DNA from: Frateuria aurantia DSM 6220 | Lineage (GTDB): Bacteria; Pseudomonadota; Gammaproteobacteria; Xanthomonadales; Rhodanobacteraceae | DNA length: 40,000 nt | Direction: 5' to 3' | NCBI RefSeq assembly: GCF_000242255.2 | Contig: NC_017033.1 | Location: forward strand, 2,079,110 to 2,119,109 | Shown here: one piece after another, positions 10,185 to 33,735 of the stretch | Numbering within the stretch: the stretch's first letter is position 1 | How the letters are laid out: each line of letters opens with the position of its first letter | Program-made: the position numbers and the translations under genes | Notes under the pieces: generated by a model | What the model saw: the letters and a program-made list of their open reading frames with translations, nothing else | Databases searched by the model: none | Told to the model about the DNA's origin: nothing

Positions 10185-11171
10185 CTATGCCCGAACATCG
10201 TGGCCATCCGAACCCAGAAAGCGTCGATCATCGACTGCGAGGCCTTGGGCAGCTGGCTGTGCTTCTGCTGAGGCTTCGGCCTGCTTGCGGATTGCGATGG
10301 CGGCCTCGACGCGTTCGACCGCGCTGAGCTTACTGCCGCCACTGCGGCCTGCTGGATGGTTTGCATGGGCTGATCCTTGGGTGACGGGCTTGGGGCCCTC
10401 GGCATGGCGATTACGGGCGGTTGTGATGGCGTAGGCGAACGGCTTGGCCTTGTTGCGGAACTCCGCAGCTGTGGCTGCCAGCGTTTCCGGGGTGATGCCC
10501 TCGGCCAGAGCGGCGAGGAGATCCGGATGCTGAGGGTTCACGTCGGAGCAGCCGGCCTTGCGCATCAGCCGGCAGGCTCGAGCGGCTTCGGTGATCGTTG
10601 GGCCGTCGTCGCTTGAATCGCTCGCGCTCGTGCCCGCGTCTATCTCTCTCTCTTGGTTATTGGTTACTGGTTTATGGATACCCGTGTCTTCACATGTGAC
10701 AGGTTGTGACGTCACATCGTCTGTCACGGGACTTGTCACACCTGTCACGCGTGACAACATCTCCCGAAGCTGTGACATGGGCGTATCAAATCCCGCTGTC
10801 ACACCGTGACGCTCGAGCTCAGCAAAGAGATCCGCGCGGCGCTGCCTGGACTTCTTCTGGCGTTCTCGCTCGTTTGCTTTCTTGCTTTGTCGATCCGGTT
10901 CGCCTGCGCGGTAGGACGCAATAATCGAGTCGGCACGATGCTGCCGCCAGAAGCCGTCTACCTGGACGAAGAACTCCTCGAGGATCGCGTCGACCGCAGC
11001 CTTCTCTTCTTCAGTGCGGGCACCAACAAGTCGATATGCCCTGCCCTCTGGAATGCCTTCCTCGGACGAGTAGTAGCGATCCAGCAGCAGCGTGTAGACG
11101 CCATGCTCGAGGATCGTCAGATGGCGGGTGTCCCGGGCGTAATCGCCCAGGTGGCGCTCGTAGTAGTTCAT
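10185..11171 (-). CDS. phage replication-associated protein, DUF1376 (YdaU-like) N-domain
   Basis: The N-terminus 'MNYYERHLGDYARDTRHLTILEHGVYTLLLDRYY' is the DUF1376 signature. The central linker is encoded by a GTGAC/GTCAC repeat cluster. An ATGA overlap links it to the upstream CII-like gene. Confidence 0.8.
   Translation of the reverse strand: MNYYERHLGDYARDTRHLTILEHGVYTLLLDRYYSSEEGIPEGRAYRLVGARTEEEKAAVDAILEEFFVQVDGFWRQHRADSIIASYRAGEPDRQSKKANERERQKKSRQRRADLFAELERHGVTAGFDTPMSQLREMLSRVTGVTSPVTDDVTSQPVTCEDTGIHKPVTNNQEREIDAGTSASDSSDDGPTITEAARACRLMRKAGCSDVNPQHPDLLAALAEGITPETLAATAAEFRNKAKPFAYAITTARNRHAEGPKPVTQGSAHANHPAGRSGGSKLSAVERVEAAIAIRKQAEASAEAQPAAQGLAVDDRRFLGSDGHDVRA
10696..10810. repeat. 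cluster of 10 GTGAC/GTCAC half-sites (iteron-like) inside the replication gene
   Basis: Half-sites start at 10696, 10706, 10711, 10723, 10735, 10744, 10751, 10773, 10798 and 10806. The cluster includes the palindrome GTGACGTCAC (10706-10715). Confidence 0.7.
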
Positions 11172-17454: not shown

Positions 17455-17473
17455 AGCCGTGCCGGCTTTTTTT
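17455..17473 (+). terminator. intrinsic terminator candidate
   Basis: AGCCG-TGC-CGGCT stem-loop followed by T7. A second hairpin, GATGCGG-CCTAT-CCGCATC, precedes it at 17416-17435. Confidence 0.45.
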
Positions 17474-17489
17474 GTGCCTGGAGAAAGTC

Positions 17490-17621
17490 ATGCACTTCAA
17501 ATCTGCTCAATACCGGCTGCTGGCAAGCATGCCTCAGTACCTCGACTACACCATGGGCCAGCTCGCCGCTCTGTGCACTGTGAACCCGAAATTCCCGCTG
17601 ATTGCCGGGGGTATCCAGTGA
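17490..17621 (+). CDS. hypothetical 43-aa protein
   Basis: ATG 17490 has GGAGAAAGTC upstream. Its stop overlaps the next start (GTGA). Confidence 0.4.
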   Translation: MHFKSAQYRLLASMPQYLDYTMGQLAALCTVNPKFPLIAGGIQ

Positions 17622-17938: not shown

Positions 17939-18273
17939 CCGACAACGACAAGACGCTGCGGGATGAGTTTGAGGAGCGCGCCAAGCGCTTATTTCTTCCA
18001 ATCGAAAGGAACAGATTCGATCAATACCGGGATACCCGCACTCAGCATATGTGGTGGGGGTGTCAGGCCGCCCACGCCAAATACGCCCCGCGATGGCTGC
18101 CGATTGATGAGGAGGTTAAAGATGGCAATCCCCTCCTAGGCCTACGAGTACAGGACGATGCTGTCTGCCTCGCCTACTGGAATGATGAATCTTTTTACAA
18201 CGTCTGGACTGGGGAGAAGGTCATTCTTACTCACTATCTTCCAATCCCTGGTGCGTCGGAGGTGGTGGCATGA
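17935..18273 (+). CDS. hypothetical phage protein with a DUF551-like C-terminus
   Basis: ATGA overlap with the upstream gene. The C-terminus 'WLPIDEEVKDGNPLLG....AYWND...W...EKVILTHYLPIP' fits the DUF551 pattern (from memory). Confidence 0.55.
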   Translation: MTDNDKTLRDEFEERAKRLFLPIERNRFDQYRDTRTQHMWWGCQAAHAKYAPRWLPIDEEVKDGNPLLGLRVQDDAVCLAYWNDESFYNVWTGEKVILTHYLPIPGASEVVA

Positions 18274-18551
18274 CCACCTACCTTCAGCCGCCGGGCATGT
18301 TCTGCGATCGAGCCGGCGAGAAAAGGGCTGACGAAGAGGAGGCCATCGAAAGGCAAGTTGCCTCTGACCTCTCCGATCCAGACGTCGCCGAGGAATGGCT
18401 GATGAGTTCGATCGACCGCTTCGACGACACCAAGGCAGCCGCCCAGGCACTGGCCCGGGGCGACCTGCACTCGTTCCATAACATCTTCGCCCACTGGGTG
18501 CAGGCGCAGACCGAACTGCGCTTTGAGCAGAAGCTCCGCGGCTTCCACTGA
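18270..18551 (+). CDS. hypothetical phage protein
   Basis: 93-aa ORF with an ATGA overlap to the previous gene and acidic, protein-like composition. Confidence 0.45.
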   Translation: MTTYLQPPGMFCDRAGEKRADEEEAIERQVASDLSDPDVAEEWLMSSIDRFDDTKAAAQALARGDLHSFHNIFAHWVQAQTELRFEQKLRGFH

Positions 18552-18603
18552 TTCAAATCCCCTCCCTTTTGATTGTGCTGGCTCAGGCCGGCAGGAGATC
18601 CCC

Positions 18604-19425
18604 ATGTCTGAAATATCCGTGGCCAGAGCACAGAACCTGGCACAAATTGAGCGTGTAAATGCGCTACTTCCCACCTCGATCGGTGAGGCCATGCAACTCG
18701 CCGAGTTCATGGCTAAGTCGGATCTCCTGCCTCCGCACCTAAAAGGCCGACAGGGCGACTGCCTGCTGGTGGTAATGCAAGCTCAACGCTGGGGTATGGA
18801 CGCCTTATCAGTGGCCCAATGCACGTCAGTTGTTCATGGACGCCTCTGCTACGAGGGCAAGCTGGTTGCGGCAGCCCTGTACTCACAGAAAGCCATCGAT
18901 GGCCGCCTCCACTATGAAATCAGCGGCCATGGGCAGGACGCCTCCATCGTTGTAACTGGAACACCTCGTGGAACTGGTCAGACTCAATCAGTGTCAGGCT
19001 CCGTCCGCAAGTGGCGAACGATCACGATGAAGAAACAGGATGGCGCCCCTCCCAAGCGGGTCGACAATGCCTGGGACACAATCCCGGAAGACATGCTGGT
19101 CTACCGCGGAACGCGGCAATGGGCGCGACGCTATGCGCCTGAGGTGATGCTCGGGGTGCAGACGCCCGATGAAGTTGACGATACACCCATGCAGACCACT
19201 GTGATCCACAGCACGGCTGCATCCTCTCCTGCCATTGAACCGTTGATTCCTTATCCGGAAGAAGAGTTCAGCAAGAACTTCGACACCTGGCTCGGACGCA
19301 TCCAGTGCGGCCGGAACTCCGCCGAAGAGGTGATCGCCAAGCTGCAGACCAAATACACCCTGACGCCCGGTCAGCTGGGCGCCATCCGTGACCTCGAAAC
19401 CACCGAGGCGGAGGTAGTCGAATGA
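18604..19425 (+). CDS. recT: RecT-family single-strand annealing recombinase
   Basis: ATG 18604 has AGGAG upstream. 'AEFMAKSDLLPPHLKGRQGDCLLVVMQAQRWGMDALSVAQ' is the typical RecT core. It is followed by an exonuclease gene. Confidence 0.8.
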   Translation: MSEISVARAQNLAQIERVNALLPTSIGEAMQLAEFMAKSDLLPPHLKGRQGDCLLVVMQAQRWGMDALSVAQCTSVVHGRLCYEGKLVAAALYSQKAIDGRLHYEISGHGQDASIVVTGTPRGTGQTQSVSGSVRKWRTITMKKQDGAPPKRVDNAWDTIPEDMLVYRGTRQWARRYAPEVMLGVQTPDEVDDTPMQTTVIHSTAASSPAIEPLIPYPEEEFSKNFDTWLGRIQCGRNSAEEVIAKLQTKYTLTPGQLGAIRDLETTEAEVVE

Positions 19426-21173
19426 AGATCGTGAAGCTCACCCAGGGCACGCCGGAATGGCATGCCCACCGCGCCCGTCACTTCAACGCCAGCGAGGCCG
19501 GCGTGATGCTGGGCATTTTCCCTGGCGTGAAACGCAGCGACCTGATCAAGGTCCGCGCCACCGGCATCGAAGAGGAGATCTCCACCTTCGTGCAGAAGAT
19601 CTTCGATGACGGTCATCGCTTCGAGGCACTGTGCCGGCCGCTGGCCGAGCTGGTGATCAGCGAGGACCTTTTCCCCTGCGTCGGAGAGGATGGCAAGCTG
19701 TCGGCCAGCTTCGACGGCCTGACGATGATGGAAGATGTGGCCTGGGAGCATAAAACGCTCAACTCGGTGCTGCGCAAGGCATTGCCGGAGGCGGCCCATA
19801 CCGGTGGCACGATTCCGCTGCACGGCGAGGATGTCACCCTGCCGGCGCACTACTGCGCACAGATGGAGCAGCAGATGCTTGTCTCCGGTGCCGATCGTAC
19901 GCTGTTCATGGCATCAGTCTGGGATGGCGACACGATGGTCGAGAGCCGGGCCTGCTGGTATCACTCCGACCCCGAACTGCGCGCACGCATCGTTGCAGGC
20001 TGGGCCCAGCTCGAGCAGGACATCGCGGCCTTCACCTTGGAGCCGGAAGAAGCTGTCGTCGTAGGCAAGGCACCCGACCAGTTGCCCGGCCTGCACATCG
20101 AGGTCACCGGCATGGTGACTGCCTCGAATCTGGAAGCGTTCAAATCTCAGGCGATGGCGGTGCTTGGCGGGATCAACCGGGACCTGCAGACCGATGAAGA
20201 CTTCGCCAATGCGGAAAAAGCAGTCACCTGGGCGAAGGGCGTAGAAGATCGCATCGATGCGGCCAAGGCCAATGCGCTCGCCCAGACCGAAACCATCGAC
20301 ACCCTCTTCCGCACCCTGGACGACGTGAAGGAGGAGACCCGGCGTATCCGCCTCGAGCTCGACAAGATGGTGAAGGCTCGCAAGGTCTCCATCCGGGACG
20401 AGATCGTCGACGCCGGCATCCGTGCAGCAAGAGCCCACTACGATCAGCTGGACTCGAGCCTGGGCGAGTATGCCATCCGTCCCGATCACGCCACGTTTGC
20501 CGTGATCGGTGCATCGATCAAGGGCAAGCGATCGATCAGCAGCATGCGGGACGCAGTCAGTACGGCCGTGGCCGACATCAAGATCGCTGCGAGCCAGTTT
20601 GCCGAAGTCATCCGCGCCAACATCAGCATCCTGAAAAATCAACATCAGCACCAGTCACTGTTTGCCGATCGGGTGATGCTTGCACAAACCAAGTCGCCTG
20701 AAGATCTCCGCAACTTGGTCGCGGCTCGTATCGGCGAGTTCGAACGGCAGGAGACTGAGCGACTGGAGCGGCAGCGCGAGCAGATCCGCAAGGAAGAAGC
20801 CGAGAAGCTGGCCCGCGAGCAGGAGGCGGCCAAGGTGGTGGACGAGACTCCGCCGGCATCTGCAAAAGTCGTCCAGTCCGCACCTCAGGCGCAGAGCCAC
20901 TTTGCGGCATCAACGGACGAGATCCCAGCCAAGGCCGAAAAAGTCGCCCAACCGGCAGGCCCTGCCAAGACCATCAAGCTGGGCGACATCAACGCCTTGA
21001 TCGCACCGCTTTCGATCACTGCAGACGGACTGGCGCAGCTTGGCTTCAACCCTGCAAGCATCGATCGCACCGCCAAGCTGTACCGAGAGGACCAGGTCCT
21101 CGAAATGTTGAGGGCCATGATGGCGCGGATCAAGGATGTCGGCCTGGCAATGTCGGAACGCAAAGCGGCCTGA
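19422..21173 (+). CDS. YqaJ/lambda-exonuclease-like recombination nuclease fused to a long coiled-coil C-terminal region
   Basis: The N-terminus 'MKIVKLTQGTPEWHAHRARHFNASEAG' is the YqaJ signature, and 'YCAQMEQQMLVSG' also fits. About 350 further residues are helical, and I recall them as DUF1351-like (unverified). ATGA overlap with recT. Confidence 0.75.
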   Translation: MKIVKLTQGTPEWHAHRARHFNASEAGVMLGIFPGVKRSDLIKVRATGIEEEISTFVQKIFDDGHRFEALCRPLAELVISEDLFPCVGEDGKLSASFDGLTMMEDVAWEHKTLNSVLRKALPEAAHTGGTIPLHGEDVTLPAHYCAQMEQQMLVSGADRTLFMASVWDGDTMVESRACWYHSDPELRARIVAGWAQLEQDIAAFTLEPEEAVVVGKAPDQLPGLHIEVTGMVTASNLEAFKSQAMAVLGGINRDLQTDEDFANAEKAVTWAKGVEDRIDAAKANALAQTETIDTLFRTLDDVKEETRRIRLELDKMVKARKVSIRDEIVDAGIRAARAHYDQLDSSLGEYAIRPDHATFAVIGASIKGKRSISSMRDAVSTAVADIKIAASQFAEVIRANISILKNQHQHQSLFADRVMLAQTKSPEDLRNLVAARIGEFERQETERLERQREQIRKEEAEKLAREQEAAKVVDETPPASAKVVQSAPQAQSHFAASTDEIPAKAEKVAQPAGPAKTIKLGDINALIAPLSITADGLAQLGFNPASIDRTAKLYREDQVLEMLRAMMARIKDVGLAMSERKAA

Positions 21174-21175
21174 CC

Positions 21176-21403
21176 ATGGCAACCGACAACTCCCTTCCCA
21201 CCATCGACATGTTCCAGCCGCTCGACGGCTGGTTCGACTGGCGATCCGGCCGTATGCGAGTGCTTGTCCGAGAAGGCGAGCCACGCATGCGCTGCGGAAA
21301 GATGGCCTGCGGCCACGATTCACCATGGGCCCCTGAGTTTTCCAAACCGTGGGGCACCTTCCCGGATCTGCCCGAAACAGTGGCCGAGAAAATGGCCGCC
21401 TGA
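21176..21403 (+). CDS. hypothetical phage protein
   Basis: 75-aa ORF starting 2 nt after the previous stop. Confidence 0.4.
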   Translation: MATDNSLPTIDMFQPLDGWFDWRSGRMRVLVREGEPRMRCGKMACGHDSPWAPEFSKPWGTFPDLPETVAEKMAA

Positions 21404-21412
21404 GGACGAAGC

Positions 21413-21745
21413 ATGAAATCACTCGGAAATATCAGCCGTGGCGCAGAAGCCGCGGCAAAACAAATCAGCAAGAACGCCCTGGAGCATGGACGTGTCGCGA
21501 TCTTCATCGATGAGACAGGCGATGTTGCCTTCGTCCCGCATTACGATCGCCAATATGGCGCGGCGCTGGCGACTCTTTCCAAGCAGCTCGTCGGAATTTA
21601 TGAGGGCAACGCCTCAGGCACCGGTGTGTGCCACCCGACGCAGTCGGTCTATGCCATCTCCAAATCGGACCTTGAGCATTGGATGGGGTTTATCAGTATC
21701 CCGGCCGGTGTGTGCGCGATGACTGAACAGAGGGCTGCAGCATGA
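21413..21745 (+). CDS. hypothetical phage protein
   Basis: 110-aa ORF with GAGGA 5 nt upstream of the ATG. Confidence 0.5.
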   Translation: MKSLGNISRGAEAAAKQISKNALEHGRVAIFIDETGDVAFVPHYDRQYGAALATLSKQLVGIYEGNASGTGVCHPTQSVYAISKSDLEHWMGFISIPAGVCAMTEQRAAA

Positions 21746-21963
21746 GCGCTGCTGAAAATATTGATCCGGCCGAAGGCCACCTGTGGGGTTATGAGGACTG
21801 CGCCAGGTATATCGGCGTGGCCCGGTGGACCTTCGTCAACCGAATCAGCAAAGAGCCGGACTTCCCGCGCCCGGCCATCGAGCTGTCGAGAAAGATCCGG
21901 CGATGGCTCCCCGAAGACGTGAAGGACTGGGCCTATCGCTCCCGCCGCCGGAACCGGCGTTAA
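21742..21963 (+). CDS. excisionase / AlpA-type HTH DNA-binding protein
   Basis: 73 aa: 'YEDCARYIGVARWTFVNRISKEPDFPRPAIELSRKIRRWLPEDVKDW', an excisionase-type winged helix. It is convergent with int and abuts it. Confidence 0.6.
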   Translation: MSAAENIDPAEGHLWGYEDCARYIGVARWTFVNRISKEPDFPRPAIELSRKIRRWLPEDVKDWAYRSRRRNRR

Positions 21964-22931
21964 CCCAGCTTGGCCGCCATATCCGTGGCGGACTCCCGGT
22001 AATAGATCAACAGGCTTTTGATGTCCCTGTGACCGATGACCCGGGCGAGCTGCAGCACATCCAGCTTCTTGCTCAGGCGCCAAATGCCTTCCGCACGCGT
22101 GTCATGGAAGTGCAGATCCTCGACGGCCGCCCTATCCCGGTACTTTCGCCAAATTGCATCCCGCTGCGCATCATTCATGCCGAAGCATGGCTGATCGCCA
22201 TCCCTTGGTAACGCCTGCAGTATCTCGGCGGCAAACGTGGACAGAGGAACGTCCCGTTTGTCGCCGTTTTTCGTTATGGGGATATGCACATAACGCTTAT
22301 CGAGGTGAACGTGATTCCAGGTCAGCCCGACAATCTCGCCTGACCGCATCGCCGTCTCGATGGCAAACAGAAAACACAGGCCGACGCGGTTGGCCAAGCT
22401 TTCGGCTCGCAGCTCATAACCGACACCGAAGGCCTGGCGGACGCACTCAATCTCATCATCCGTAAGCCGGCGCTTGCGGCTCTCTGGTGACTTGGGAGCT
22501 GCAAATCCTTCGAACGGGTTATGGGTCATCCAGCCCCATTCCTCTCGGCACCGCCGAAACAGGCCCCGCAGCTCGTTCATCTCTCGCCGGACCGATGCCT
22601 CGGAGACCTCTTGCAGCCTGGCATCCCGGTAACGAATCAGGTGATCTTTGCTCACCTCGGGTATCCGCACCTCGGCAATGGGATCCAGCATCAGGCGCTT
22701 CACGCGAGCGATATCCCCCCGTGATTTGCCGGCATTCACATGCTCGTCGAGCAGGCGCTTGAGGGCATCTTCCACCAGCATCTTCTGCGCAGGTGCCTGC
22801 TTGCCCTCAGCCTCTTGGCGAAGGGACCAGCGCTGCGCTTCGGTCTTGGTGGAAAACGACTTGCTGACGCGCTGGCCATGAACCATGACCTGGGCTCGCC
22901 AGTTTGTGCCGCGCTTTGTGATGGATGCCAT
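21960..22931 (-). CDS. int: tyrosine site-specific integrase (prophage)
   Basis: 323 aa from ATG 22931 ('MASITKRGTNWRAQV'). The catalytic region has 'ETAMRSGEI', 'HDTRAEGIWRL' and 'GHRDIKSLLIYY'. Confidence 0.9.
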   Translation of the reverse strand: MASITKRGTNWRAQVMVHGQRVSKSFSTKTEAQRWSLRQEAEGKQAPAQKMLVEDALKRLLDEHVNAGKSRGDIARVKRLMLDPIAEVRIPEVSKDHLIRYRDARLQEVSEASVRREMNELRGLFRRCREEWGWMTHNPFEGFAAPKSPESRKRRLTDDEIECVRQAFGVGYELRAESLANRVGLCFLFAIETAMRSGEIVGLTWNHVHLDKRYVHIPITKNGDKRDVPLSTFAAEILQALPRDGDQPCFGMNDAQRDAIWRKYRDRAAVEDLHFHDTRAEGIWRLSKKLDVLQLARVIGHRDIKSLLIYYRESATDMAAKLG

Positions 22932-23017
22932 GTCGCCTCGCTGCTGGTGCAATCTCTGGTGCAAAAGTGGTGCACTAGGGTGCAACTTACGGCAATTTCT
23001 GGCAACTAAAACGAGAA

Positions 23018-23041
23018 AGGCCACCCCTTGCGGAGTGGCCT
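23018..23041. terminator. GC-rich hairpin flanked by A/T runs (candidate bidirectional terminator/insulator upstream of int)
   Basis: AGGCCAC-N10-GTGGCCT, flanked by AAAACGAG ... CTCGTCGTTTT. Confidence 0.4.
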
Positions 23042-23082: not shown

Positions 23083-23090
23083 ATCGCTAG

Positions 23091-23112
23091 TTGGTATTGG
23101 TGCCAAGAGGGG
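23091..23112 (+). repeat. degenerate copy of the tRNA-Leu 3' end (att core remnant)
   Basis: TTGGTAT-TGGTGCC-AAGAGGGG compares with TTGGTATGTGGTGCCCAAGAGGGG at 33643-33666. The two differ by two single-base gaps. Confidence 0.7.
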
Positions 23113-23360
23113 CATCGAAAACCGCATAGAAATGCGGACTATCAATGCCAAAAGAAAAATATGCCCCCCAAAAATGCCCCCAGACCGGCCGCGCTTGAAT
23201 GAGACAGCATGGGACAACCGGGCCATCTGGCGAGGATATCCACCCGTCGCCACTGTAGAAATTGACCCGATCTGATTGGTGCCCCTTTAGGGCACTCGAT
23301 CTGGTGCAGAATGTCGCAGGTTGAGGGGGGGGTAAAAGTGCGGAGGTTATTACTTTTTCG

Positions 23361-23462
23361 GTGTTCCAGGTGTTCCACCCCTCCTAAACCCGCATGGTTA
23401 AGCCATTTCTCAGGCAAAAAAATGGAACACCTCCAAAAACGGCAGGTGTTCCAGGTGTTCCA
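23361..23462. repeat. octamer iteron cluster (GTGTTCCA/TGGAACAC), 5 copies
   Basis: GTGTTCCA at 23361, 23370, 23446 and 23455 (two tandem pairs, 9-bp register), and inverted TGGAACAC at 23423. Confidence 0.8.
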
Positions 23463-23488: not shown

Positions 23489-25285
23489 TCAGCCCTCTGC
23501 GGAGAAAACAGCCGCGCCCTCAAGGACATAGAACCGCCCCTTGCTCAGACCCCGCACACGCACGGATTGCGAGGCCTTGCCATCCTTGCCCGGCTGCAGC
23601 CATCCCGCGGCGATCAGCGTCTGTGCCGCCGCCTTCGGGTTGAAGCCCCGCACCAGCTCCTCGAAGGCCTCCGGCATGACCAGGTACTGCTCGCGCCGAT
23701 CCTCGGCGCCCGGCTCACCGACCTGCAACTTGCGACGAAAGCCGACACGATGTGCCACCGGCCGGCGCTCGTTATCGTGGTCCTCCGGTTCGAAGCGGCT
23801 ATCGCCATGCGCCTCGATGAAGGCCTTCACCTGAGACAGCAGCGCCGCCCGCTCGGCATCGGCAGGGCCGCCGCGGTCAGCCAGCCACTGGCGAAAACAG
23901 ATCCGGATTGCTTGCGCTGCCTCGCCCTCGGGCCAGCCGGTGATGCCGTAGGCCGTCGCCAGCTCGCCGGCGGCGCCGATCAGGGCAAAGCGCCGGGCCA
24001 CGCGCCGGACTTGCCCGCCGGCATCTTCGGGCACCAGGTCCGCCAGCATGTCGGTCATGCTCGCCTCAATGCGTCGACGCGATGCACGCTGGTCCGCCGT
24101 CAGCTGCTCGAGAAAGGACAGCAGCGGATGCCCGTAGTGTGTCGCCGCGGCCCGCTTCAACTGCTCGGCCACCGCGCTGGCGCTGCTGCCCACCGGCACC
24201 GACTCGAACATGCCATGCCCCATACCGGCATCCGCTGCCACGTCGATCACTCGCACCTCATGGCCAGCCCGACGCCGGCCGCCCGACTCCACCATCAGAT
24301 CGCCCATGCTGACCTCACCCGAGGACAGAAACGCCGTGCGCCATGTCGCCACCGGCCGGGCTCGGCCACTGCGATCTGATCGCCCTTTGCCCTGCCCGTT
24401 GGCCAGCATATAGGCGACCCTGCTGGCGTCCTTCGGCTCCAACTGGCCCAGCTCATCCAGCGGCAGCATCAGGTCGTTGTGCAGGGTCGCCACGCCCTCG
24501 AGCGCGTTGTCGGTCTGCCGCCATGTTCGCATGTAGGCCGGCGGACCATAGACGGACGATGCCACCAGCACGGCAGTCGTCTTGCCGGTGCTGCTCGAGC
24601 CCCGCAGATGCACGCCGCCACCGTCCATGCCGGCCAGATCCAGGCACGGTGCAGAGAAAGCCATGGAGACCGCCAACACCAGGCGGCTATGCCCGATGCA
24701 AACCTTGGCCACGCTATCGGTCCAGCCCTCGAGCGTGCCGCCGGTGGCGACTTGCGCCGCACCCGGTGCCGTGGTCTGGAAGATAACCGCCTCAGCTGCT
24801 GTCGGGCCAAAGGTGCGATCAGGCAGCGCAAACACCTCACCATGCCAGCCGGTGCGGCTCACGCTCCGCGCCTTCTGAGTGGGGTTGGCCTGGGCGATGT
24901 AGTCCATCAGCAGCTTGCGGGCGTGCTGGGAATTGGCGATCACCAGACCTTGCCCCAGCAGCTCTGCCCGCAGCTCCGCGCCATCGGTGGCCAGCATGGC
25001 GCAGGGCATCGCCCAGCGGTGCGCCTTGCCGTCCCGATCCGTGAAGGCCAGCAAGCGCCCCCATTCTCCGCCATCGGCATTGCGTGTCTCGGCCTCGACA
25101 TACAGAGGCGCGCAGATCCACGTCGCCGGCTTGTCGCTGTGCGGGTCGCTGAAATAGACCCCGTGGCGTCGGCCTTTGCCACGCTCGACCACTTCAAAGC
25201 CGGGCCCGGCCGGCGGTTCGGCATTGCTCACCACCAGGGCGAGCGGCGGCAGCGACTCGGCCGCTTCAATCGTGGAGCTGGACAT
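23489..25285 (-). CDS. DUF927-type helicase (SF3-like NTPase) of the integrative element
   Basis: 598 aa from ATG 25285. It has a Walker A motif, 'RGSSSTGKTT', and a DUF927-like N-region ('WICAPLYVEAETRNADGGEWGRLLAFTDRDGKAHRW'). It overlaps the end of the primase gene. Confidence 0.75.
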   Translation of the reverse strand: MSSSTIEAAESLPPLALVVSNAEPPAGPGFEVVERGKGRRHGVYFSDPHSDKPATWICAPLYVEAETRNADGGEWGRLLAFTDRDGKAHRWAMPCAMLATDGAELRAELLGQGLVIANSQHARKLLMDYIAQANPTQKARSVSRTGWHGEVFALPDRTFGPTAAEAVIFQTTAPGAAQVATGGTLEGWTDSVAKVCIGHSRLVLAVSMAFSAPCLDLAGMDGGGVHLRGSSSTGKTTAVLVASSVYGPPAYMRTWRQTDNALEGVATLHNDLMLPLDELGQLEPKDASRVAYMLANGQGKGRSDRSGRARPVATWRTAFLSSGEVSMGDLMVESGGRRRAGHEVRVIDVAADAGMGHGMFESVPVGSSASAVAEQLKRAAATHYGHPLLSFLEQLTADQRASRRRIEASMTDMLADLVPEDAGGQVRRVARRFALIGAAGELATAYGITGWPEGEAAQAIRICFRQWLADRGGPADAERAALLSQVKAFIEAHGDSRFEPEDHDNERRPVAHRVGFRRKLQVGEPGAEDRREQYLVMPEAFEELVRGFNPKAAAQTLIAAGWLQPGKDGKASQSVRVRGLSKGRFYVLEGAAVFSAEG

Positions 25286-26198
25286 GATTTTTGACCTCGA
25301 TAGATTCGGGCGTGCCGCCTTGCGCGGCCAGGGTGGTGGCGTAGTCGTTGAAGTCGCCGGGAATGGGTGGCACGGCCAGCGCCGCACCGATGGCACAGGC
25401 CGCTTGTGTCGCCGCCTGCACACCGGGATTGCTGCCATCCGGCTTGGCATCGTTGTCCGCGCAGATCGTGATTGGCAGATCCGGGTAGCGATCGCGCATC
25501 ACCAGCGCTACCGCCAGCAGGTTGCCGGCACTGAAAGCGACCGCCACCGCCTGGCCGGTGCTGGCGTGCAGACTCTTGGCCGTGGCCACGCCCTCAGCGA
25601 TCAACAGTCCGTCGCGGACCTTGCCCAGCAGGCAATAGGCGCCGCGGACCATGCCGCCGGGCAAAAACCGCTTGTCACCGTCGCCGCGGATACGCTGCAG
25701 GTTGACCAGGCGGCCCTCGGCATCGTGCATCGGCACCAGCAGCTTGCCGCCAGCTTCCCGCAGCCCGTCAGCCGTCACGCCTTTACGTTGCAGGTAGGGA
25801 TGCCGCGGACTGGCCGGGCTGGCGCGCTGCCACTCATCGAACGCACTGCCGGCGGCACGCCGCTGGCGGTGACGTTGCTCGGCATCGCGTGCGGCGCGGG
25901 CCTGCTCGATGGCGATACGCTGGCGCTCCAGCTCGTCGGCCGTCATGGTGCGGCCGGACTGGCCCAGCACCACAGTATGCTGCCCGCCTTTGCGCCAGCT
26001 CCCGAACACCGCGACAGGTCGCTCCGTATCAACATACACCACGGCCCAGCCATTGCGCTTGTCGCGCCGGTCGCCTTCATCGTGGAACCTGCACAGCACG
26101 CCATCCAGGCGCAGCCGGGTCGGATCGGTCGGCGTGATGCCGTGCTGGCGCATCGCGGCCACCAGGTCGGCCAAGAGATTGCCGGTGTAGCGGCTCAT
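25266..26198 (-). CDS. Toprim-domain DNA primase
   Basis: 310 aa from ATG 26198, with GGAGG upstream. The Toprim motifs are 'LLIAEGVATAKS' (Glu) and 'ITICADNDA' (DxD). Confidence 0.75.
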   Translation of the reverse strand: MSRYTGNLLADLVAAMRQHGITPTDPTRLRLDGVLCRFHDEGDRRDKRNGWAVVYVDTERPVAVFGSWRKGGQHTVVLGQSGRTMTADELERQRIAIEQARAARDAEQRHRQRRAAGSAFDEWQRASPASPRHPYLQRKGVTADGLREAGGKLLVPMHDAEGRLVNLQRIRGDGDKRFLPGGMVRGAYCLLGKVRDGLLIAEGVATAKSLHASTGQAVAVAFSAGNLLAVALVMRDRYPDLPITICADNDAKPDGSNPGVQAATQAACAIGAALAVPPIPGDFNDYATTLAAQGGTPESIEVKNHVQLHD

Positions 26199-27086: not shown

Positions 27087-27236
27087 GGTGGGGTTCCTTG
27101 AGAGATTGGAACCGCCGCGCACAGTCGCCAAACCATGGGCGGCGGGATGCAACGGGTTGGCGAACCGGTACTCAAGGAACCCGGCAGGCCCGTAGGCCTC
27201 CCATTGCACCCCGCCATAAGCTGGGCATGACGCAAC

Positions 27237-29426: not shown

Positions 29427-29589
29427 TGCCGCGCCCTGAAAGGTGCCGCGCCAGCCTGGCAGGGTGTCCAGACGTTCGGGGATCAGCCTAGGCGCGGTGG
29501 CACTAGTCTAGCGCGTCGTGGGACGATATGGGACGGCATGGGACTGTATGCTAGGGTTGGCCATCCAACAGGCTGGTGTGCTGCCGAAA

Positions 29590-30243
29590 ATGACCATGAC
29601 CGATCACCTATCTAGGTTTTCTGTAACGCTCTCCGATGGCACGGATATGACACCACAGCTTCAGCGTTTTGCTGAAATCATAGGATTGGATCGTATCGCA
29701 CCTGAGCGTTACAGCCTGTTGCTACTGCTTGGCTTGTACGGGGCCAAAGAATCAGGAAAACAAAATCCATTTAAAATCATTCAAGAAATAAAGGCATTAG
29801 AAGACCCTCAAATAGCGAGCAATCTAAAACCTGCCACTCAGTTCAAGCACCCCCCACTCAAGGGGCTATGGCACAAGCACTATCTTCAAGACGGGATCGC
29901 ATCTATGGCGCTAAACCTTCGAAAAGGAATGGATAGATATAAGTTGCCATGGGTTGAGCAACGGATAGCCGAAGCCAAGGCTGCCAATGAAAAGCGCTTC
30001 TTTTCAATGGAGGACGCCGCACACATTGCGCGAGATGCAGTCTCAGATAATTGGAAGAGGCTCACTAGAGACTCTGTCCTTACTGGCGAATGGCTCATCT
30101 ATGCGAGATATCAGAATGCAAACTACTACCTGTGTCTAGGCAAGCATCAAAACGATGACGCGGAATTAAGAAGGCAAATCGATGCCATCTGCTTACATGA
30201 ATTTCCCTTCCTATCTCAAATATTAGATCAAACTGCCAATTGA
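29590..30243 (+). CDS. hypothetical cargo protein
   Basis: The ORF is open from 29518. The likely start is ATG 29590 ('MTMTDHLSRF'). It is AT-rich, and the C-terminus reads 'LTGEWLIYARYQNANYYLCLGKH'. No family recognised. Confidence 0.5.
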   Translation: MTMTDHLSRFSVTLSDGTDMTPQLQRFAEIIGLDRIAPERYSLLLLLGLYGAKESGKQNPFKIIQEIKALEDPQIASNLKPATQFKHPPLKGLWHKHYLQDGIASMALNLRKGMDRYKLPWVEQRIAEAKAANEKRFFSMEDAAHIARDAVSDNWKRLTRDSVLTGEWLIYARYQNANYYLCLGKHQNDDAELRRQIDAICLHEFPFLSQILDQTAN

Positions 30244-30434
30244 TCCAGACATAGCTTGTCAACAATACTACCAGCGGCCCCGTACAGGACAACGATGAAA
30301 GCTGCCATTGACCGTGCCGAGGCAGCGCGACGCTGAGGCCTGGCCACTGATAGACTGCCCATGACGTATGGGTATGTCCCTGCTCATGCGCCACGGCGGA
30401 TATGTCCGGGGTGATGACCGGAGCCAGCAACACG

Positions 30435-30466
30435 CCCCCGTAGGCCGGCCAGCCTCGGGGGTTTTT
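30435..30466 (+). terminator. intrinsic terminator candidate
   Basis: CCCCCG-N15-CGGGGG followed by TTTTT. Confidence 0.5.
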
Positions 30467-30744
30467 CGTTTACAAGCGCGGGAGTCTGCCCGCCGCCGAA
30501 CGCACCGGATGACGATGCGAATCGATAACCGATCCAATTACGGAATATCCCGTAGTTGGCCAGGTCACTGGCTCGTCGTGGAATCGATGCAGTGAGCTTG
30601 GCCCAGACCACTCATCTGAGCAAACAGCGCCGGTCAGCCACTGCCCGCAGAGTCATGTGCGCATCGATGCCTGGCAGTCGCTTGGGCAGCAGATCCGCGG
30701 GGCGTTTTGAGCCTGATCGGAAGGCGGGTTTTGGGGACTTGGCC

Positions 30745-31073
30745 GTGATATGTCACCCCGTAACGCGCGCGTGCGCGCGAGGGACGCCCCTGAAGCCAGT
30801 CACAGCAACGGTTTGCGGGCATTGTGACCTGCCGACATGGTGATGCCCCGGTAACGTCCAGAACGCGGCGCTCAGGCAGTTGCCAGAGTGGCGCCGGCGA
30901 TATGTCAGCCCACTACGCGTGCGTGCGCGGGGATGGCGCCCAGGCAGACCACCTCACCGGACAGCAGGCATTCCGAGCTGGGCCAGCAGGACCGATCAAG
31001 GCGAGGATCTGGGGTGGGTGATGGGGCTGAAACGGTGATATGTCACTCCAAAAAAACGCGTGCGCGCGAGGAC
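30745..31073 (+). repeat. three imperfect ~40-bp direct repeats (GTGATATGTCAC...ACGCGTGCGCGCGAGGAC)
   Basis: Copies at 30745-30786, 30897-30934 and 31035-31073, with starts spaced 152 and 138 bp apart. Related TATGTC boxes lie at 30373 and 30401. Confidence 0.75.
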
Positions 31074-31542
31074 GGGAAAATCGCCCTGTCTGGCGAGCTG
31101 TCTGCGCCGGCCAGCCAGCGATCGGGGCACACGCCGCCGGCAACAGCCTGGGCCCGAGCCCATCCGCAGATCCGCCCCCATCCATTCAGGCCCAGCCACC
31201 CCAGCACCACCAGGACGGCCGCGCTGCAGCTGGCCAGCAGCTCCGATCCACGCAGCACACCCGCCAAGCCTCTGTCGATCGATACGCCGGCACGCTCAAA
31301 TCGGCGGGTCCCTCCTTCAGCTGGTCGCACAGCATGGCGCACAGAACGCCCGCCACGCCCCGCGCGGCATCTGAGCCATGGCAGTGCATGCCTGTCGCTG
31401 CAGGACGGCCCACAGGCGCGGCCAGAGTGATCGACGGATCAGCGCCGCAGGCAGCGGGCCCAGCGATCGCCAGCACCAGCACATGCGGAGTTTCTGGACC
31501 ACTACGCACGCGCACGCGAGCCGGCTGCCCTGGGACCATTTC

Positions 31543-31685
31543 CGTGACGTCACGAAAAAGCCCCGCCTGCCGGTCACGCTCTGTCACGGGATCGTCACGG
31601 TCCCGGCTGCTGCCGGGCACCGCATGTCACGCCAATGTCACGGCCTGTCACGCTCCATCAGAGCCAATGCTCGCCGGCGGTCACA
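31543..31685 (+). repeat. phased GTCACG box array
   Basis: The palindrome CGTGACGTCACG lies at 31543-31554. GTCACG occurs at 31573, 31583 and 31594, and again at 31626, 31637 and 31647 (10-11 bp spacing). GTCACA is at 31680. The hairpin CCCGGC-TGCT-GCCGGG (31602-31617) sits between the two triplets. Confidence 0.8.
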
Positions 31686-31917
31686 AGCCATCCTGCTTGC
31701 ACGCCGACCTGTTCTGCCCAGGCTGGCCGCGACCTATCCGCCTCACGCACCGGCGCGCGACGCGCACCGCTTGAGATGTCCCGATCCGGCCAAGTGGTAT
31801 GGTCGCAAACCAGCGTCGCGGGAACCGGCCCAAACTGGCCGATCACAGGCAGCTGGCGCGATCCAGCACCAACATTCCGTGACCAACATCACAATAAAAG
31901 CCAATTTCAGCCCAAAG

Positions 31918-32029
31918 TGGAACACCTGGAACACCTTGGAACACGTCAGGTGTTCCAAAGTGTGACGCTCATAAATGGCTCAACGGTGCGACCTCCCAGC
32001 CACTGGAACACCTGGAACACCTGGAACAC
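31918..32029. repeat. octamer iteron cluster (TGGAACAC), 7 copies
   Basis: TGGAACAC at 31918, 31927, 31937, 32004, 32013 and 32022, and inverted GTGTTCCA at 31950. Confidence 0.8.
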
Positions 32030-32109
32030 CGCAAAAGTGATAAGGGTCAGGAAAATCTCTCCGAAACTGCCGGCGACGCGAGCACAGATGCAATACCACT
32101 TTTGCCGGA

Positions 32110-33348
32110 TCAGCCCGCCTTGCTCTTGAAGGCCACCACCGTGCCGCCAGCCTTGAGACTGTCCAGGTAATCCGCCCACGCCTGCATCATCTTCTGACGT
32201 TCGGGCAGGTACTGTGCCTGGCTGGTATAGGCATCGCGCACCTTGTTCGATTCGGCATGGGCCAGCTGGCGCTCGATGGCGTCGGCGTTCCAGCCCATCT
32301 CGTTGAGCCGGGTTGCCGCCATGGAGCGGAAGCCATGAGCCGTCATCGTGGCCTTGTCGTAGCCCAGGGCACGCAGGGCTGTGTTGACGGTGTTCTCGGA
32401 CATGGGCCGGCTGTCGGTCCGAAGGCCTGAAAACACATAGCGGGCATGGCCGGTCAACCCATGCAGATCCCGTAAGATGGCCAGCGCCTGCTCGGACAGT
32501 GGCACCAGGTGCGGCGCACCCATCTTCATCTTCTCGCCCGGGATGCGCCACATCGCGCCATCCAGATCCATCTCGGCCCACTCCGCTTTGCGCAACTCAC
32601 CAGGGCGAACGAACAGCAGGGCCGACAGCAGCAGCGCGCAGCGCACCGTGAAGGTGCCGGCAAACCCATCCATGGCACGCATCAGGCCACCGATCTGCAC
32701 CGGATCTGTGATGGCGGCATGGTGGCGATTGCGTGTGGTCTTCAGCGCGCCGCGCAGGCTGGCCATGGGATCGGCTTCGCACAGCCCCTCGATGATGGCG
32801 TAACGGAATACCTGCCCAGCCTTGATCTTGGATCGGCGTGCCGTCTCAAGCAGTCCCTTGTCTTCAGTCTCCCTCAGCGCCGCCAGCAGCTCCCGCGGGG
32901 TGATATCCGCAATGGGTCGCTGACCGATGGATGGGAACAGATATTCCTCGAGCAGCCATTGATTCTTGTTGGCGGTTACCTCGGCCACGTCCTGGCGGGC
33001 GAGCCACTGCCGGGCAACTTGCTCGAAGGTCACGGCACCGCCAGCCTCGGCGGTCGCCTCTTGCTTGGCCTCCTTGCGAGCCGCACCCGGATCAATGCCA
33101 TCCGCCAGCAGCCGGCGGGCATCCTCCCTGCGCTTGCGGGCATCCGCCAAACTGATCCCGGGATAGACGCCAAGTGCCAGCCGTTTCTCTTTGCCGCCAA
33201 ATCGATACTTCAGCCGCCAGTATCGGGAGCCATTGGGCATGACCTCGAGATACATGCCACCCCCATCGGGCAGCCGGTAGCTTTTGTCACGGGGAGCGGC
33301 CTTGCGGGCGGCAGTGTCGGTCAATGGCATTGGGGGCATCTCCGCCAC
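32110..33348 (-). CDS. int: P4-type tyrosine integrase (DUF4102 arm-binding N-domain plus catalytic domain)
   Basis: 'MPLTDTAARKAAPRDKSYRLPDGGGMYLEVMPNGSRYWRLKYRFGGKEKRLALGVYP' is the P4-integrase N-terminal signature. The catalytic region has 'HGFRSMAAT' and 'AYT'. The likely start is ATG 33330, and the gene is adjacent to the tRNA 3' end. Confidence 0.9.
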   Translation of the reverse strand: MAEMPPMPLTDTAARKAAPRDKSYRLPDGGGMYLEVMPNGSRYWRLKYRFGGKEKRLALGVYPGISLADARKRREDARRLLADGIDPGAARKEAKQEATAEAGGAVTFEQVARQWLARQDVAEVTANKNQWLLEEYLFPSIGQRPIADITPRELLAALRETEDKGLLETARRSKIKAGQVFRYAIIEGLCEADPMASLRGALKTTRNRHHAAITDPVQIGGLMRAMDGFAGTFTVRCALLLSALLFVRPGELRKAEWAEMDLDGAMWRIPGEKMKMGAPHLVPLSEQALAILRDLHGLTGHARYVFSGLRTDSRPMSENTVNTALRALGYDKATMTAHGFRSMAATRLNEMGWNADAIERQLAHAESNKVRDAYTSQAQYLPERQKMMQAWADYLDSLKAGGTVVAFKSKAG

Positions 33349-33633
33349 CAGCCTGGGGGCACAAGTCCTGCGGCTGGGGGCATAAAGCCCAGCTGGACCG
33401 CATCAAGACCCGACAGCCGCCAAGCCTTGGCAGGCCTGGGTTTGCGGGGCATCAGCGAACGTCGCTGGGGGCATCTCGGGATCGAGGTAGGGGGCATTGA
33501 GCCCTTGTGCCCCCAAATATGCCCCCACAAAGCCTGCGCTTCAATGGGATTGTATGGGACAACATGAGACGAGCAGGCAAGAAAAAACCCGCTAAGTAGC
33601 GGGTTTCAAAGGAAATTCAGGACTATATGGGAC
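33331..33633. promoter_or_regulatory. att arm with repeated motif arrays (GGGGGCAT-type x8, ATGGGAC-type x4)
   Basis: GGGGGCA(T/C) near 33332, 33355, 33376, 33444 (GCGGGGCAT), 33467 and 33490. The inverted form (A/G)TGCCCCC is at 33508 and 33520. ATGGGAT/ATGGGAC/ATGAGAC lie at 33544, 33554 and 33564, and ATGGGAC at 33627. Confidence 0.6.
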
Positions 33634-33650: not shown

Positions 33651-33735
33651 TGGTGCCCAAGAGGGGACTCGAACCCCTACGACTTGCGTCGCTACCACCT
33701 CAAGGTAGTGCGTCTACCAATTCCGCCACCTGGGC
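33651..33735 (-). tRNA. tRNA-Leu (anticodon GAG)
   Basis: 85 nt including an encoded CCA. The acceptor stem is GCCCAGG/CTTGGGC, the anticodon stem-loop is CTACC-TTGAGGT-GGTAG, the variable arm is long, and the T-arm is AGGGG-TTCGAGT-CCCCT. It lies downstream of secG, as does E. coli leuU. Confidence 0.9.

What the first reader, a model, noticed from the sequence alone, without database searches (positions are those of the whole stretch)
30244..32109. About 1.85 kb of GC-rich, ORF-poor, repeat-dense DNA inside a compact mobile element
Between the cargo gene and the integrase gene I find no convincing ORF. All listed ORFs here are Arg/Pro/Ser-rich, mutually overlapping and lack SD sequences. 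The region is packed with ordered elements: a terminator (30435-30466); TATGTC boxes (30373, 30401); three ~40-bp repeats beginning with the GTGA-N4-TCAC inverted repeat and ending in ACGCGTGCGCGCGAGGAC (30745, 30897 and 31035, 138-152 bp apart); the phased GTCACG array; and an octamer cluster. A non-coding stretch this long is unusual in a 10-kb element. It may encode regulatory RNAs (P4 immunity is RNA-based), a replication/partition control region, or a decoy array for helper-phage proteins.
Basis: partly seen in the sequence, partly recalled or inferred. Interest (0 to 1): 0.66.

Follow-up and report, generated by a model that had tools for sequence, protein, structure and literature searches.

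The report
Satellite's non-coding origin and decoy region
This 1.85-kb gene-free stretch of a small phage-satellite island in Frateuria aurantia is a patchwork of protein-binding DNA: it holds a second copy of the island's own replication origin and, next to it, an orphan array of the origin repeats used by the neighbouring prophage, which suggests the satellite taps or titrates its helper's replication starter protein.

Summary

The window comes from Frateuria aurantia DSM 6220. The region lies in a 10.6-kb P4/PICI-like satellite integrated at tRNA-Leu. It is a mosaic of four parts:
- **Own-origin copy.** The octamer cluster (31918-32031, TGGAACACC x7) duplicates the iteron origin that sits just 3' of the satellite's DUF927 helicase gene (23361-23462). 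This resembles P4 ori/crr.
- **Phage-type origin array.** The GTCACG array (31543-31690) has the same core (YGTCACR) and the same 10-mer palindrome (GTGACGTCAC) as an array inside the DUF1376 replication-organiser gene of the defective lambdoid prophage lying in tandem (10691-10815). It is an orphan phage-type origin.
- **Imported module.** Positions 31023-31571 are a 549-bp non-coding module, 89% identical and without gaps to an unrelated chromosomal intergenic site in a metagenome contig. It carries an Rfam abiF-type hairpin with no AbiF gene.
- **Three repeats.** These are the module's left end plus two diverged extra copies.

Most likely function: cis-acting replication control plus capture or titration of the helper's initiator. 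This is inferred, not shown. I rate it a new variant of known kinds, with interest about 0.6.

The parts
30435..30466 (+). Intrinsic terminator of the cargo gene (Fraau_1986 family, 29596-30243)
   Evidence: Hairpin plus U-run, -21.8 kcal/mol, z -2.1.
30373..30406 (+). Two TATGTC boxes (30373, 30401). They belong to a set of five same-strand TATGTC boxes spanning 30373-31044.
   Evidence: All five plus-strand TATGTC copies in the 40-kb window lie here. No binding partner is known.
30745..30789 (+). Repeat copy 1 (GTGATATGTCAC..CGCGTGCGCGCGAGG)
   Evidence: local alignment z = 9 against shuffles.
30897..30941 (+). Repeat copy 2, the most diverged (GCGATATGTCAG..CGCGTGCGTGCGCGG)
31035..31075 (+). 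Repeat copy 3, which is the left end of the 549-bp module
   Evidence: It is conserved in L236.
31023..31571 (.). Imported 549-bp non-coding module. The centre (31161-31440) is its most conserved part.
   Evidence: 89% identical with 0 gaps to metagenome contig L236 3507-4055, where it sits between unrelated chromosomal genes. L237 is orthologous to L236. No reading frame is open with a start codon in both copies.
31260..31309 (+). abiF-type RNA hairpin (Rfam RF03085) with no AbiF gene
   Evidence: 42.8 bits (gathering score 37), and every consensus position matches. No Abi_2 domain in any frame.
31543..31690 (+). Orphan phage-type origin array: palindrome CGTGACGTCACG, then 3 + 3 direct YGTCACG repeats on one helix face (31573, 31583, 31594; 31626, 31637, 31647), plus GGTCACA at 31679-31685
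   Evidence: Its twin lies in the prophage replication gene at 10691-10815.
31601..31616 (.). Palindrome CCCGGCTGCTGCCGGG between the two GTCACG triplets
   Evidence: Read directly from the sequence.
31880..31917 (.). Most AT-rich segment of the region (GC 0.39), abutting the iterons. It is a candidate unwinding element.
31918..32031 (+). Iteron cluster B: TGGAACACC x3, one inverted copy, a 46-bp spacer, then TGGAACACC x3. It is a second copy of the satellite's own origin.
   Evidence: Distant relatives L128, L152, L161 and L206 have a cluster in the same position, just after the integrase stop.
23361..23462 (-). Iteron cluster A (outside the finding): the origin immediately 3' of the DUF927 helicase gene
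23489..25450 (-). DUF927 primase/helicase, the presumed iteron-binding initiator of the satellite
   Evidence: Pfam and PHROG hits. Similarity in its C-terminal 90 aa tracks iteron type.
10691..10815 (.). Prophage origin-like array (10 x YGTCACR, including GTGACGTCAC) inside the linker of the DUF1376 replication gene (10185-11171, minus strand)

Best explanation
The stretch is genuinely non-coding. It serves as the cis-acting replication and protein-binding region of a 10.6-kb phage satellite (attL about 23090-23120; attR in tRNA-Leu 33651-33735).

**Cluster B (31918-32031).** This is a second copy of the satellite's own iteron origin. Its twin lies directly after the DUF927 helicase gene. The helicase, probably through its C-terminal domain, would bind both clusters. 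In the excised circle they flank attP-int about 1.9 kb apart. This resembles P4 ori plus crr, or an iteron control locus such as P1 incA.

**YGTCACR array (31543-31690).** This is an orphan phage-type origin. It has the same core and the same palindrome as the iterons embedded in the replication-organiser gene of the lambdoid prophage integrated in tandem. When a phage of that replication type is induced or infects, its initiator would bind the satellite array. That would either fire satellite replication at the phage's expense, or titrate the initiator, or both.

**The remainder.**
- A 549-bp module acquired horizontally, carrying an abiF-type hairpin.
- Two older partial duplications of that module's left end.
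- The cargo gene's terminator.

**Shown:** the sequence identities, the clustering statistics, the conserved positions in relatives and the absence of coding signal.

**Inferred:** every protein-DNA interaction and every effect on replication.
For: **Non-coding status:**

**Own origin**
- TGGAACAC occurs 13 times against 1.1 expected, 12 of them in two clusters.
- Clusters A and B align over about 130 bp. They share the layout (direct repeats, one inverted copy, spacer with AAATGGCTYAAC, direct repeats, CGNAAAAGTRATAA).
- Relatives carry their own iterons directly after the helicase stop codon: TGTCCCGG in L014, TGTCCCCA in L016, and TGGAACACC in L164, L157 and L224.
- Elements with only 38-42% identical integrases carry the TGGAACACC cluster 60-130 bp after the integrase stop.
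- The helicase C-terminal 90 aa is 40-41% identical to same-iteron relatives but 27-34% identical to different-iteron relatives. This reverses the trend in the rest of the protein.
- A PICI origin is defined as two iteron sets flanking an AT-rich region 3' of rep (PMC6092414).

**Phage-type origin**
- GTCAC occurs 79 times in 40 kb. The two densest 150-bp windows hold 10 copies (10691-10840) and 9 copies (31541-31690); the next best holds 3. GTCAC ranks first of all 512 pentamers on its second-best cluster.
- GTGACGTCAC occurs exactly twice, at 10706 and 31544, against 0.01 expected.
- The prophage array lies in the linker of a DUF1376 / PHROG 'primosomal protein' gene. That gene sits just downstream of cII, with the CI-like repressor gene nearby, which is the position of lambda O.
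- A DUF1376 gene in L051 has a different array at the same place.
- The palindrome-plus-array pattern occurs in at least 120 IMG/VR contigs. It lies inside all three DUF1376 homologues found there. Among the other host ORFs that Pfam could annotate, most are replisome organisers: Phage_rep_org_N 8, Phg_2220_C 5, DnaT 3, DnaB_2 2.
- The six direct satellite sites sit at 0, 10, 21, 53, 64 and 74 bp, all on one face of the helix.
Against: - No experiment supports any binding or replication effect.
- The tandem prophage looks defective. An IS lies right after its replication gene, and the window holds no structural genes. It may therefore not be a working helper.
- The two GTCAC arrays share only the motif, not extended homology. 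The similarity could therefore be convergent.
- Apart from the iterons and the 549-bp module, no part of 30244-31900 was found in any relative. Conservation of the array could not be tested.
- GTCAC arrays also occur inside a DUF3631 replication gene of a related island, L015. The array could therefore be a fossil of an earlier replication module of the satellite itself.
- No sigma-70-like promoter was found in the region.
Confidence: 0.55

Rival explanations
1. Recombination graveyard. Apart from iteron cluster B, the stretch is functionless debris in the satellite's variable cargo slot: a fossil origin left by a swapped-out replication module or by past recombination with a phage, plus an inserted non-coding module and its decaying duplicates.
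For: - The slot between the integrase gene and alpA varies among relatives, and in L206 it holds unrelated cargo.
- Nothing in 30244-31900 is conserved in the fetched relatives.
- The abiF hairpin is degraded in the two homologues.
- A related island, L015, has GTCAC repeats inside its own DUF3631 replication gene.
- No promoters were found, and RNA fold z-scores are ordinary.
Against: - All nine GTCAC sites keep the full core, and six keep helical phasing around a central palindrome.
- The 42-bp repeat cores are better preserved than their flanks, and they are also preserved in L236.
- No trace of a DUF3631 or DUF1376 pseudogene was found around the array.
Confidence: 0.25
2. Regulatory RNA locus. 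The region is transcribed into one or more small RNAs. The abiF-type hairpin would be an orphan antitoxin-like RNA that neutralises an AbiF toxin encoded elsewhere, or a host AbiF defence during satellite or helper growth.
For: - The Rfam abiF hit is above the gathering score and matches the consensus perfectly.
- The hairpin sits in the most conserved part of the module (93% identity).
- The same consensus hairpin stands without an AbiF gene in 10 of 11 IMG/VR contigs.
- One segment, 30520-30640 on the plus strand, folds unusually well (z about -3.1 to -3.5).
Against: [quoted passage not shown]
- The hairpin has no U-tail or promoter signal.
- Its stem carries one uncompensated mismatch in L236 and another in L237. 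L236 scores below the gathering score and L237 is not detected.
- The 91-nt context has fold z = +0.25.
Confidence: 0.12
3. A missed protein-coding gene or recent pseudogene lies inside 31023-31571.
For: - The 549 bp align with L236 without a single gap at 11% divergence.
- The 60 mismatches fall 32/15/13 by codon phase, p about 0.004.
Against: - Both frames compatible with that phase contain stop codons in one or both sequences, and neither has a conserved start.
- The orthologous pair L236/L237 shows no periodicity (27/32/33).
- L237 has indels of 1, 4, 1 and 1 bp.
- Codon scores are negative.
- Pfam finds nothing.
- Only two spurious ORF calls turned up among 1.84 billion representative proteins.
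Confidence: 0.04

Closest known systems
Satellite phage P4 ori and crr (two iteron regions bound by the alpha primase-helicase)
   Same: Both have two separated clusters of one short iteron on a roughly 11-kb integrase-bearing satellite that encodes its own primase and helicase. Both also have a C4-type immunity RNA and an alpA-type gene. The P4 details come from my own knowledge. PMC6092414 mentions alpha and its cognate ori site.
   Different: - Here primase (Toprim_3) and helicase (DUF927) are separate proteins unrelated to the P4 alpha architecture.
- The iteron is TGGAACACC, not TGTTCACC.
- One cluster follows the helicase gene, as in PICIs.
- No sid, psu or delta genes were seen.
PICI/SaPI replication origin (two iteron sets flanking an AT-rich region immediately 3' of rep)
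   Same: Cluster A has exactly this position and layout, and cluster B has the same layout (PMC6092414).
   Different: A second complete copy 8.5 kb away, next to the integrase gene, is not part of the PICI description.
Origins embedded in phage replication-initiator genes (lambda O, SPP1 G38P / Phage_rep_org_N)
   Same: The prophage array sits in the linker of its initiator-type gene. The same palindrome-plus-array pattern falls inside replisome-organiser genes in IMG/VR contigs.
   Different: The satellite copy lies outside any gene and has no cognate initiator in the element.
Origin-derived phage-encoded resistance (Per) plasmids of lactococci, and helper-iteron-bearing DNA satellites of begomoviruses
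   Same: Both are replicons that carry another virus's origin iterons. They are then replicated by, or titrate, that virus's initiator. The Per details come from my own knowledge; the title of McGrath et al. 1999 appears in the reference list seen. The begomovirus satellite origin statement is in the abstract of PMC12193555.
   Different: Per is a laboratory construct. The begomovirus case concerns rolling-circle Rep proteins in plants. To my knowledge no natural phage satellite has been described with a helper-type theta origin.
abiF RNA motif (Rfam RF03085), the RNA antitoxin of AbiF type III toxin-antitoxin systems
   Same: Sequence and fold match the family consensus above the gathering score.
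   Different: - There is no AbiF gene.
- The terminal loop is enlarged to 20 nt.
- There is no U-tail.
- The homologues show no compensatory changes.

Membership tests
P4-type ori/crr pair | Two separated clusters of the same iteron on one replicon | tested here: met
   Clusters at 23361-23462 and 31918-32031. 12 of the window's 13 TGGAACAC copies lie in them.
P4-type ori/crr pair | Iterons bound by the element's primase-helicase, with both sites required in cis | not testable with these tools
   Indirect evidence only: similarity in the helicase C-terminus tracks iteron type.
PICI-type origin | Located immediately 3' of the replication initiator gene | tested here: not met
   Cluster B, the copy inside the finding, lies 3' of the integrase gene. 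Cluster A meets this feature, starting 27 bp after the helicase stop codon.
PICI-type origin | [quoted passage not shown] | tested here: met
   Layout is 3 direct + 1 inverted, spacer, 3 direct. Spacer GC is 0.57, the left flank 0.39, and the regional average 0.63-0.68.
Phage initiator-embedded origin (lambda O / replisome-organiser type) | Array of initiator-binding iterons | tested here: met
   Nine YGTCACR sites including the palindrome GTGACGTCAC. The core is the same as in the prophage DUF1376 gene.
Phage initiator-embedded origin (lambda O / replisome-organiser type) | Array lies inside the initiator gene | tested here: not met
   No ORF or pseudogene of DUF1376 or DUF3631 type lies around 31543-31690.
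abiF RNA (RF03085) | Covariance-model score at or above the gathering score | tested here: met
   42.8 bits against 37.
abiF RNA (RF03085) | Lies upstream of an abiF/Abi_2 gene | tested here: not met
   No Abi_2 hit in six frames of the region, or in the other window ORFs scanned.
abiF RNA (RF03085) | Stem maintained by compensatory change in homologues | tested here: not met
   L236 has a C-A mismatch and L237 an A-G mismatch in the outer stem. L236 scores 35.7 bits and L237 is not detected.
CRISPR array / ToxI-like tandem RNA repeats | Regular short repeats with uniform spacing | tested here: not met
   Only three 42-bp repeats, 152 and 138 bp apart, and they are diverged.
MITE-like mobile module (for 31023-31571) | Terminal inverted repeats and target-site duplication | tested here: inconclusive
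   The boundaries against L236 are sharp. The ends share only GGGGCT..GTGA..GTCAC-like similarity, and no target-site duplication was seen.

The most novel reading that the evidence does not exclude
A bacteriophage satellite that has its own replicon additionally keeps a gene-less copy of its helper-type phage's origin iterons. This would let it capture the phage's replication initiator. The initiator's appearance would then both signal phage activity and drive satellite replication, or starve the phage origin. The satellite also carries an orphan AbiF-antitoxin-like RNA that could disarm an abortive-infection toxin. Together these would make a non-coding 'molecular mimicry' region.
Probability: 0.3. 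Interest if true: 0.8.

Novelty: new variant of a known kind. Interest (0 to 1): 0.6.

Why it matters
Phage satellites are known to exploit helpers through proteins: derepression, capsid redirection and packaging. Origin mimicry would be a purely DNA-level way to sense, exploit or inhibit a helper, in which a satellite carries the helper's initiator-binding sites alongside its own origin. It would parallel plant DNA satellites and engineered Per plasmids.

The idea is directly testable in a cultured, sequenced strain, Frateuria aurantia DSM 6220.

The analysis also gives practical rules for annotating satellites:
- Look for the iterons found after the helicase gene again near the integrase gene.
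- Compare intergenic arrays in the satellite with arrays inside resident prophage replication genes.

Tried and rejected
**Protein coding.** Rejected on the GC-phase plot, the codon model, six-frame Pfam, a search of the longest ORF and a full HMMER scan of the best minus-strand ORF. The scan found only two spurious ORF calls, but these led to the homologous DNA in L236 and L237.

**Substitution periodicity in the module.** It was followed up and not reproduced in the L236/L237 pair. Frame-breaking indels are present.

**Decayed AbiF, DUF1376, DUF3631 or cargo-neighbour genes.** No tblastn trace was found.

**C4 immunity RNA targets in the region.** None. The complementary site is at 27091-27102.

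**Shared cos/pac or other sequence with the prophage.** Nothing beyond the GTCAC motif.

**Homologous DNA elsewhere**
- None in plasmids or phages.
- None in 54 genome loci with related integrases.
- An IMG/VR pattern scan for the 42-bp repeat found nothing.

**CRISPR-like or ToxI-like arrays.** Rejected on spacing.

**Structured RNA across the whole region.** Mean fold z is -0.3. Outliers occur only at the iterons, at the GTCACG array and at 30520-30640.

**Exact-protein look-ups of the window's own genome.** These failed; the genome appears to be withheld. The second Frateuria element (helicase paralogue P0122) could therefore not be read.
Full report
**Context**

The cargo gene product is identical to Fraau_1986 of Frateuria aurantia DSM 6220. 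The finding lies in an element of about 10.6 kb.
- attR lies in the 3' end of tRNA-Leu(GAG), 33651-33735.
- A degenerate copy of the tRNA 3' end at about 23090-23120 is attL (27 of 31 positions identical).
- On the minus strand the element encodes, in order:
  - a P4-type integrase (32110-33348);
  - an int-alpA RNA motif (29434-29498);
  - an AlpA-like ORF;
  - a KilA-N/HTH protein;
  - a C4 antisense RNA (27135-27221);
  - a Toprim primase;
  - a DUF927 helicase (23489-25450).
- Left of attL lies a defective lambdoid prophage. It carries an integrase (21960-23024), RecT, a YqaJ-like protein, RexA/RexB, a CI-like repressor, CII and a DUF1376 replication gene (10185-11171). An IS follows the replication gene.

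Yes.
- The region shows no coding periodicity.
- All of its ORFs score negative on a codon model trained on neighbouring genes.
- Six-frame Pfam scans are empty.
- The longest ORF has no homologue.
- The repeat families are all statistically non-random.
- In relatives the integrase gene is followed almost at once by the int-alpA motif or alpA (L016, 20 bp; L012, about 660 bp). The 2.6 kb between them here is therefore an expansion of a variable slot.

**Part 1: the octamer cluster is a second copy of the satellite's own origin**

- TGGAACAC occurs 13 times in the window (1.1 expected). Seven copies are at 31918-32029 and five at 23361-23462, the latter starting 27 bp beyond the helicase stop codon.
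- Read on the helicase-sense strand, cluster A has the same layout as cluster B on the plus strand: direct repeats, one inverted copy, a spacer containing AAATGGCTYAAC, direct repeats, then CGNAAAAGTRATAA.
- This is the PICI origin layout, with two iteron sets around an AT-richer segment 3' of rep (PMC6092414).
- Relatives support function:
  - Elements with DUF927 helicases have iterons right after the helicase stop. The motif differs between elements: TGTCCCGG in L014, TGTCCCCA in L016, and TGGAACACC in L164, L157 and the 94%-identical L224.
  - L224 has three distal iterons where the window has two.
  - Elements whose integrases are only 38-42% identical have a TGGAACACC cluster 60-130 bp after the integrase stop, as here (L128/L206 and L152/L161).
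  - The helicase C-terminal 90 residues are more similar to same-iteron relatives (40-41%) than to different-iteron relatives (27-34%). The rest of the protein shows the opposite trend. This fits a C-terminal iteron-reading domain.
- In the excised circle the two clusters flank attP-int about 1.9 kb apart. The closest analogue is P4 ori plus crr (my own knowledge). A copy-control locus of the P1 incA kind is an alternative role.

**Part 2: the GTCACG array is an orphan phage-type origin matching the neighbouring prophage**

- A 12-mer match led to window 10691-10815. There, 10 YGTCACR sites lie in the middle of the prophage DUF1376 gene.
- GTCAC occurs 79 times in 40 kb. The two densest 150-bp windows are this one (10 copies) and the satellite array (9 copies); the next best has 3. 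GTCAC ranks first of all 512 pentamers for its second-best cluster.
- The palindrome GTGACGTCAC occurs exactly twice, once in each array (0.01 expected). In both arrays three direct YGTCACR (mostly TGTCAC) repeats follow it.
- The DUF1376 protein matches PHROG 'primosomal protein' families. Its gene sits just downstream of cII, with the CI-like repressor gene nearby. This is the place of lambda O, whose origin lies inside the gene. The repeats encode a VT-rich linker.
- A DUF1376 gene in L051 has a different array (AACCA x6) at the same linker position.
- The palindrome-plus-array pattern occurs in at least 120 IMG/VR contigs.
  - It lies inside all three DUF1376 homologues found among them.
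  - Among the other host ORFs that Pfam could name, most are replication organisers: Phage_rep_org_N 8, Phg_2220_C 5, DnaT 3, DnaB_2 2.
- In the satellite the array lies in no gene. No pseudogene trace surrounds it.
- Its six direct sites sit at 0, 10, 21, 53, 64 and 74 bp, on one helix face, around the palindrome CCCGGCTGCTGCCGGG.
- I infer that it is a landing pad for a phage initiator of this type. Hijack and decoy cannot be told apart here.
- Caveats:
  - The two arrays share only the motif.
  - The tandem prophage is defective.
  - A related island, L015, has GTCAC repeats in its own DUF3631 replication gene. A fossil origin therefore remains possible.

**Part 3: an imported module**

- A full HMMER scan with a minus-strand ORF found two ORF calls in metagenomes. 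Their contigs showed that window 31023-31571 is 89% identical, with no gaps, to L236 3507-4055.
- In L236 the module lies between unrelated chromosomal genes, upstream of a secreted-protein and TonB-receptor pair. L237 is the orthologous locus of a relative of L236.
- Mismatches between the window and L236 favour one codon phase (32/15/13). Against a coding reading:
  - No frame is open with a start codon in both sequences.
  - L236 against L237 shows no periodicity.
  - L237 has indels of 1 and 4 bp.
  I therefore treat the module as non-coding.
- Its best-conserved centre holds the Rfam abiF hit (31260-31309; 42.8 bits, perfect consensus).
  - abiF RNAs are antitoxins of AbiF toxins (PMC12373285).
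  - No Abi_2 gene was detected here.
  - The stem is weakened by uncompensated changes in both homologues.
- The identical consensus hairpin stands without AbiF in 10 of 11 IMG/VR contigs, next to portal, protease or terminase genes.

**Part 4: the three repeats**

- Copy 3 is the left end of the module and is conserved in L236. Copies 1 and 2 are upstream duplicates, spaced at 152 and 138 bp.
- Their 42-45 bp cores are kept (77-90% identity) while the flanks have drifted.
- The core contains TGTCAC, the same half-site as the origin array. With the two boxes at 30373 and 30401, it accounts for all plus-strand TATGTC copies in the window.
- A binding role is plausible, but no partner is known.

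**Part 5: the left margin**

Positions 30244-30470 are the 3' end and terminator of the cargo gene. Positions 30520-30640 fold unusually well on the plus strand (z about -3.1 to -3.5). This is unexplained.

**Verdict**

- The region is not one entity. It is a cis-site mosaic in the satellite's variable slot.
- The own-origin duplicate is well supported and of a known kind.
- The match between a satellite array and the origin repeats of the tandem prophage is the interesting part. To my knowledge this has not been described for phage satellites. It rests on strong sequence statistics but on no functional data.

Noticed in passing
window 10185-23024: A defective lambdoid prophage lies in tandem with the satellite at the same tRNA-Leu site. 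It carries an integrase, RecT/YqaJ, RexA (13319-14218), RexB, a CI-like S24 repressor (12430-13179), CII and a DUF1376 replication gene. It is cut short by an IS (rve transposase, 9316-10140), and no structural genes are present in the window.
   Followed up: partly
window 23161-23182 and 33331-33527: ATGCCCCC(A) repeats cluster next to both attachment sites (7 copies). L003 has four copies upstream of its integrase gene. They are probably integrase arm-type binding sites.
   Followed up: no
L225-L235 (IMG/VR): The exact abiF-consensus hairpin occurs in 11 viral contigs. Only one (L228) is followed by an Abi_2 gene. The others sit beside portal, Mu-like protease, terminase-like or DUF4214 genes, usually followed by a T-run. 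These orphan abiF RNAs in phages may be anti-AbiF mimics.
   Followed up: partly
L238-L357 (IMG/VR): GTGACGTCAC followed by GTCAC repeats is a widespread array in viral contigs. It mostly lies inside 250-350-aa ORFs. Where these can be annotated, they are replisome organisers (Phage_rep_org_N, Phg_2220_C, DUF1376, DnaT, DnaB_2). About 80 of the host ORFs have no Pfam match.
   Followed up: partly
window 27091-27102 (-) and 27135-27221 (-): The loop of the C4 antisense RNA (GGGUUCCUUGAG) has a perfect 12-nt complementary site 33 nt downstream on the same strand. This resembles the P4 seqB/seqC immunity arrangement.
   Followed up: no
window 29434-29498 (-): The int-alpA RNA motif, which directly follows the integrase gene in relative L016, is here displaced 2.6 kb from it. 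A 211-aa ORF without family hits lies between the motif and the AlpA-like gene.
   Followed up: no
window 29596-30243 (+); L222, L223: The low-GC cargo gene (Fraau_1986; PHROG 33791, no Pfam hit) belongs to a widespread family of about 215 aa. In L223 it sits directly upstream of a SIR2_2 gene, which hints at a defence-system component.
   Followed up: partly
P0122; L224: The same genome is annotated with a DUF927 helicase 80% identical to this one, implying a second related satellite in F. aurantia DSM 6220. A Logan contig (L224, SRR9640355) carries a 94%-identical helicase and the same origin with one extra iteron.
   Followed up: partly
L015 13986-14112: A related tRNA-Leu island in a Rhodanobacter MAG has five GTCAC/GTGAC repeats in the 3' end of a DUF3631 replication gene. 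The same iteron core therefore appears in a different replication-protein family.
   Followed up: partly
window 30520-30640 (+): This segment has an unusually stable predicted fold (-57.3 kcal/mol for 30500-30650, z -3.1; z -3.5 for the 120-nt window 30520-30639). No Rfam match and no homologue were found.
   Followed up: no
window 7272-8575: A low-GC pair of genes, DUF3289 and DUF943 (families typical of enterobacteria), sits just beyond the IS that truncates the prophage.
   Followed up: no
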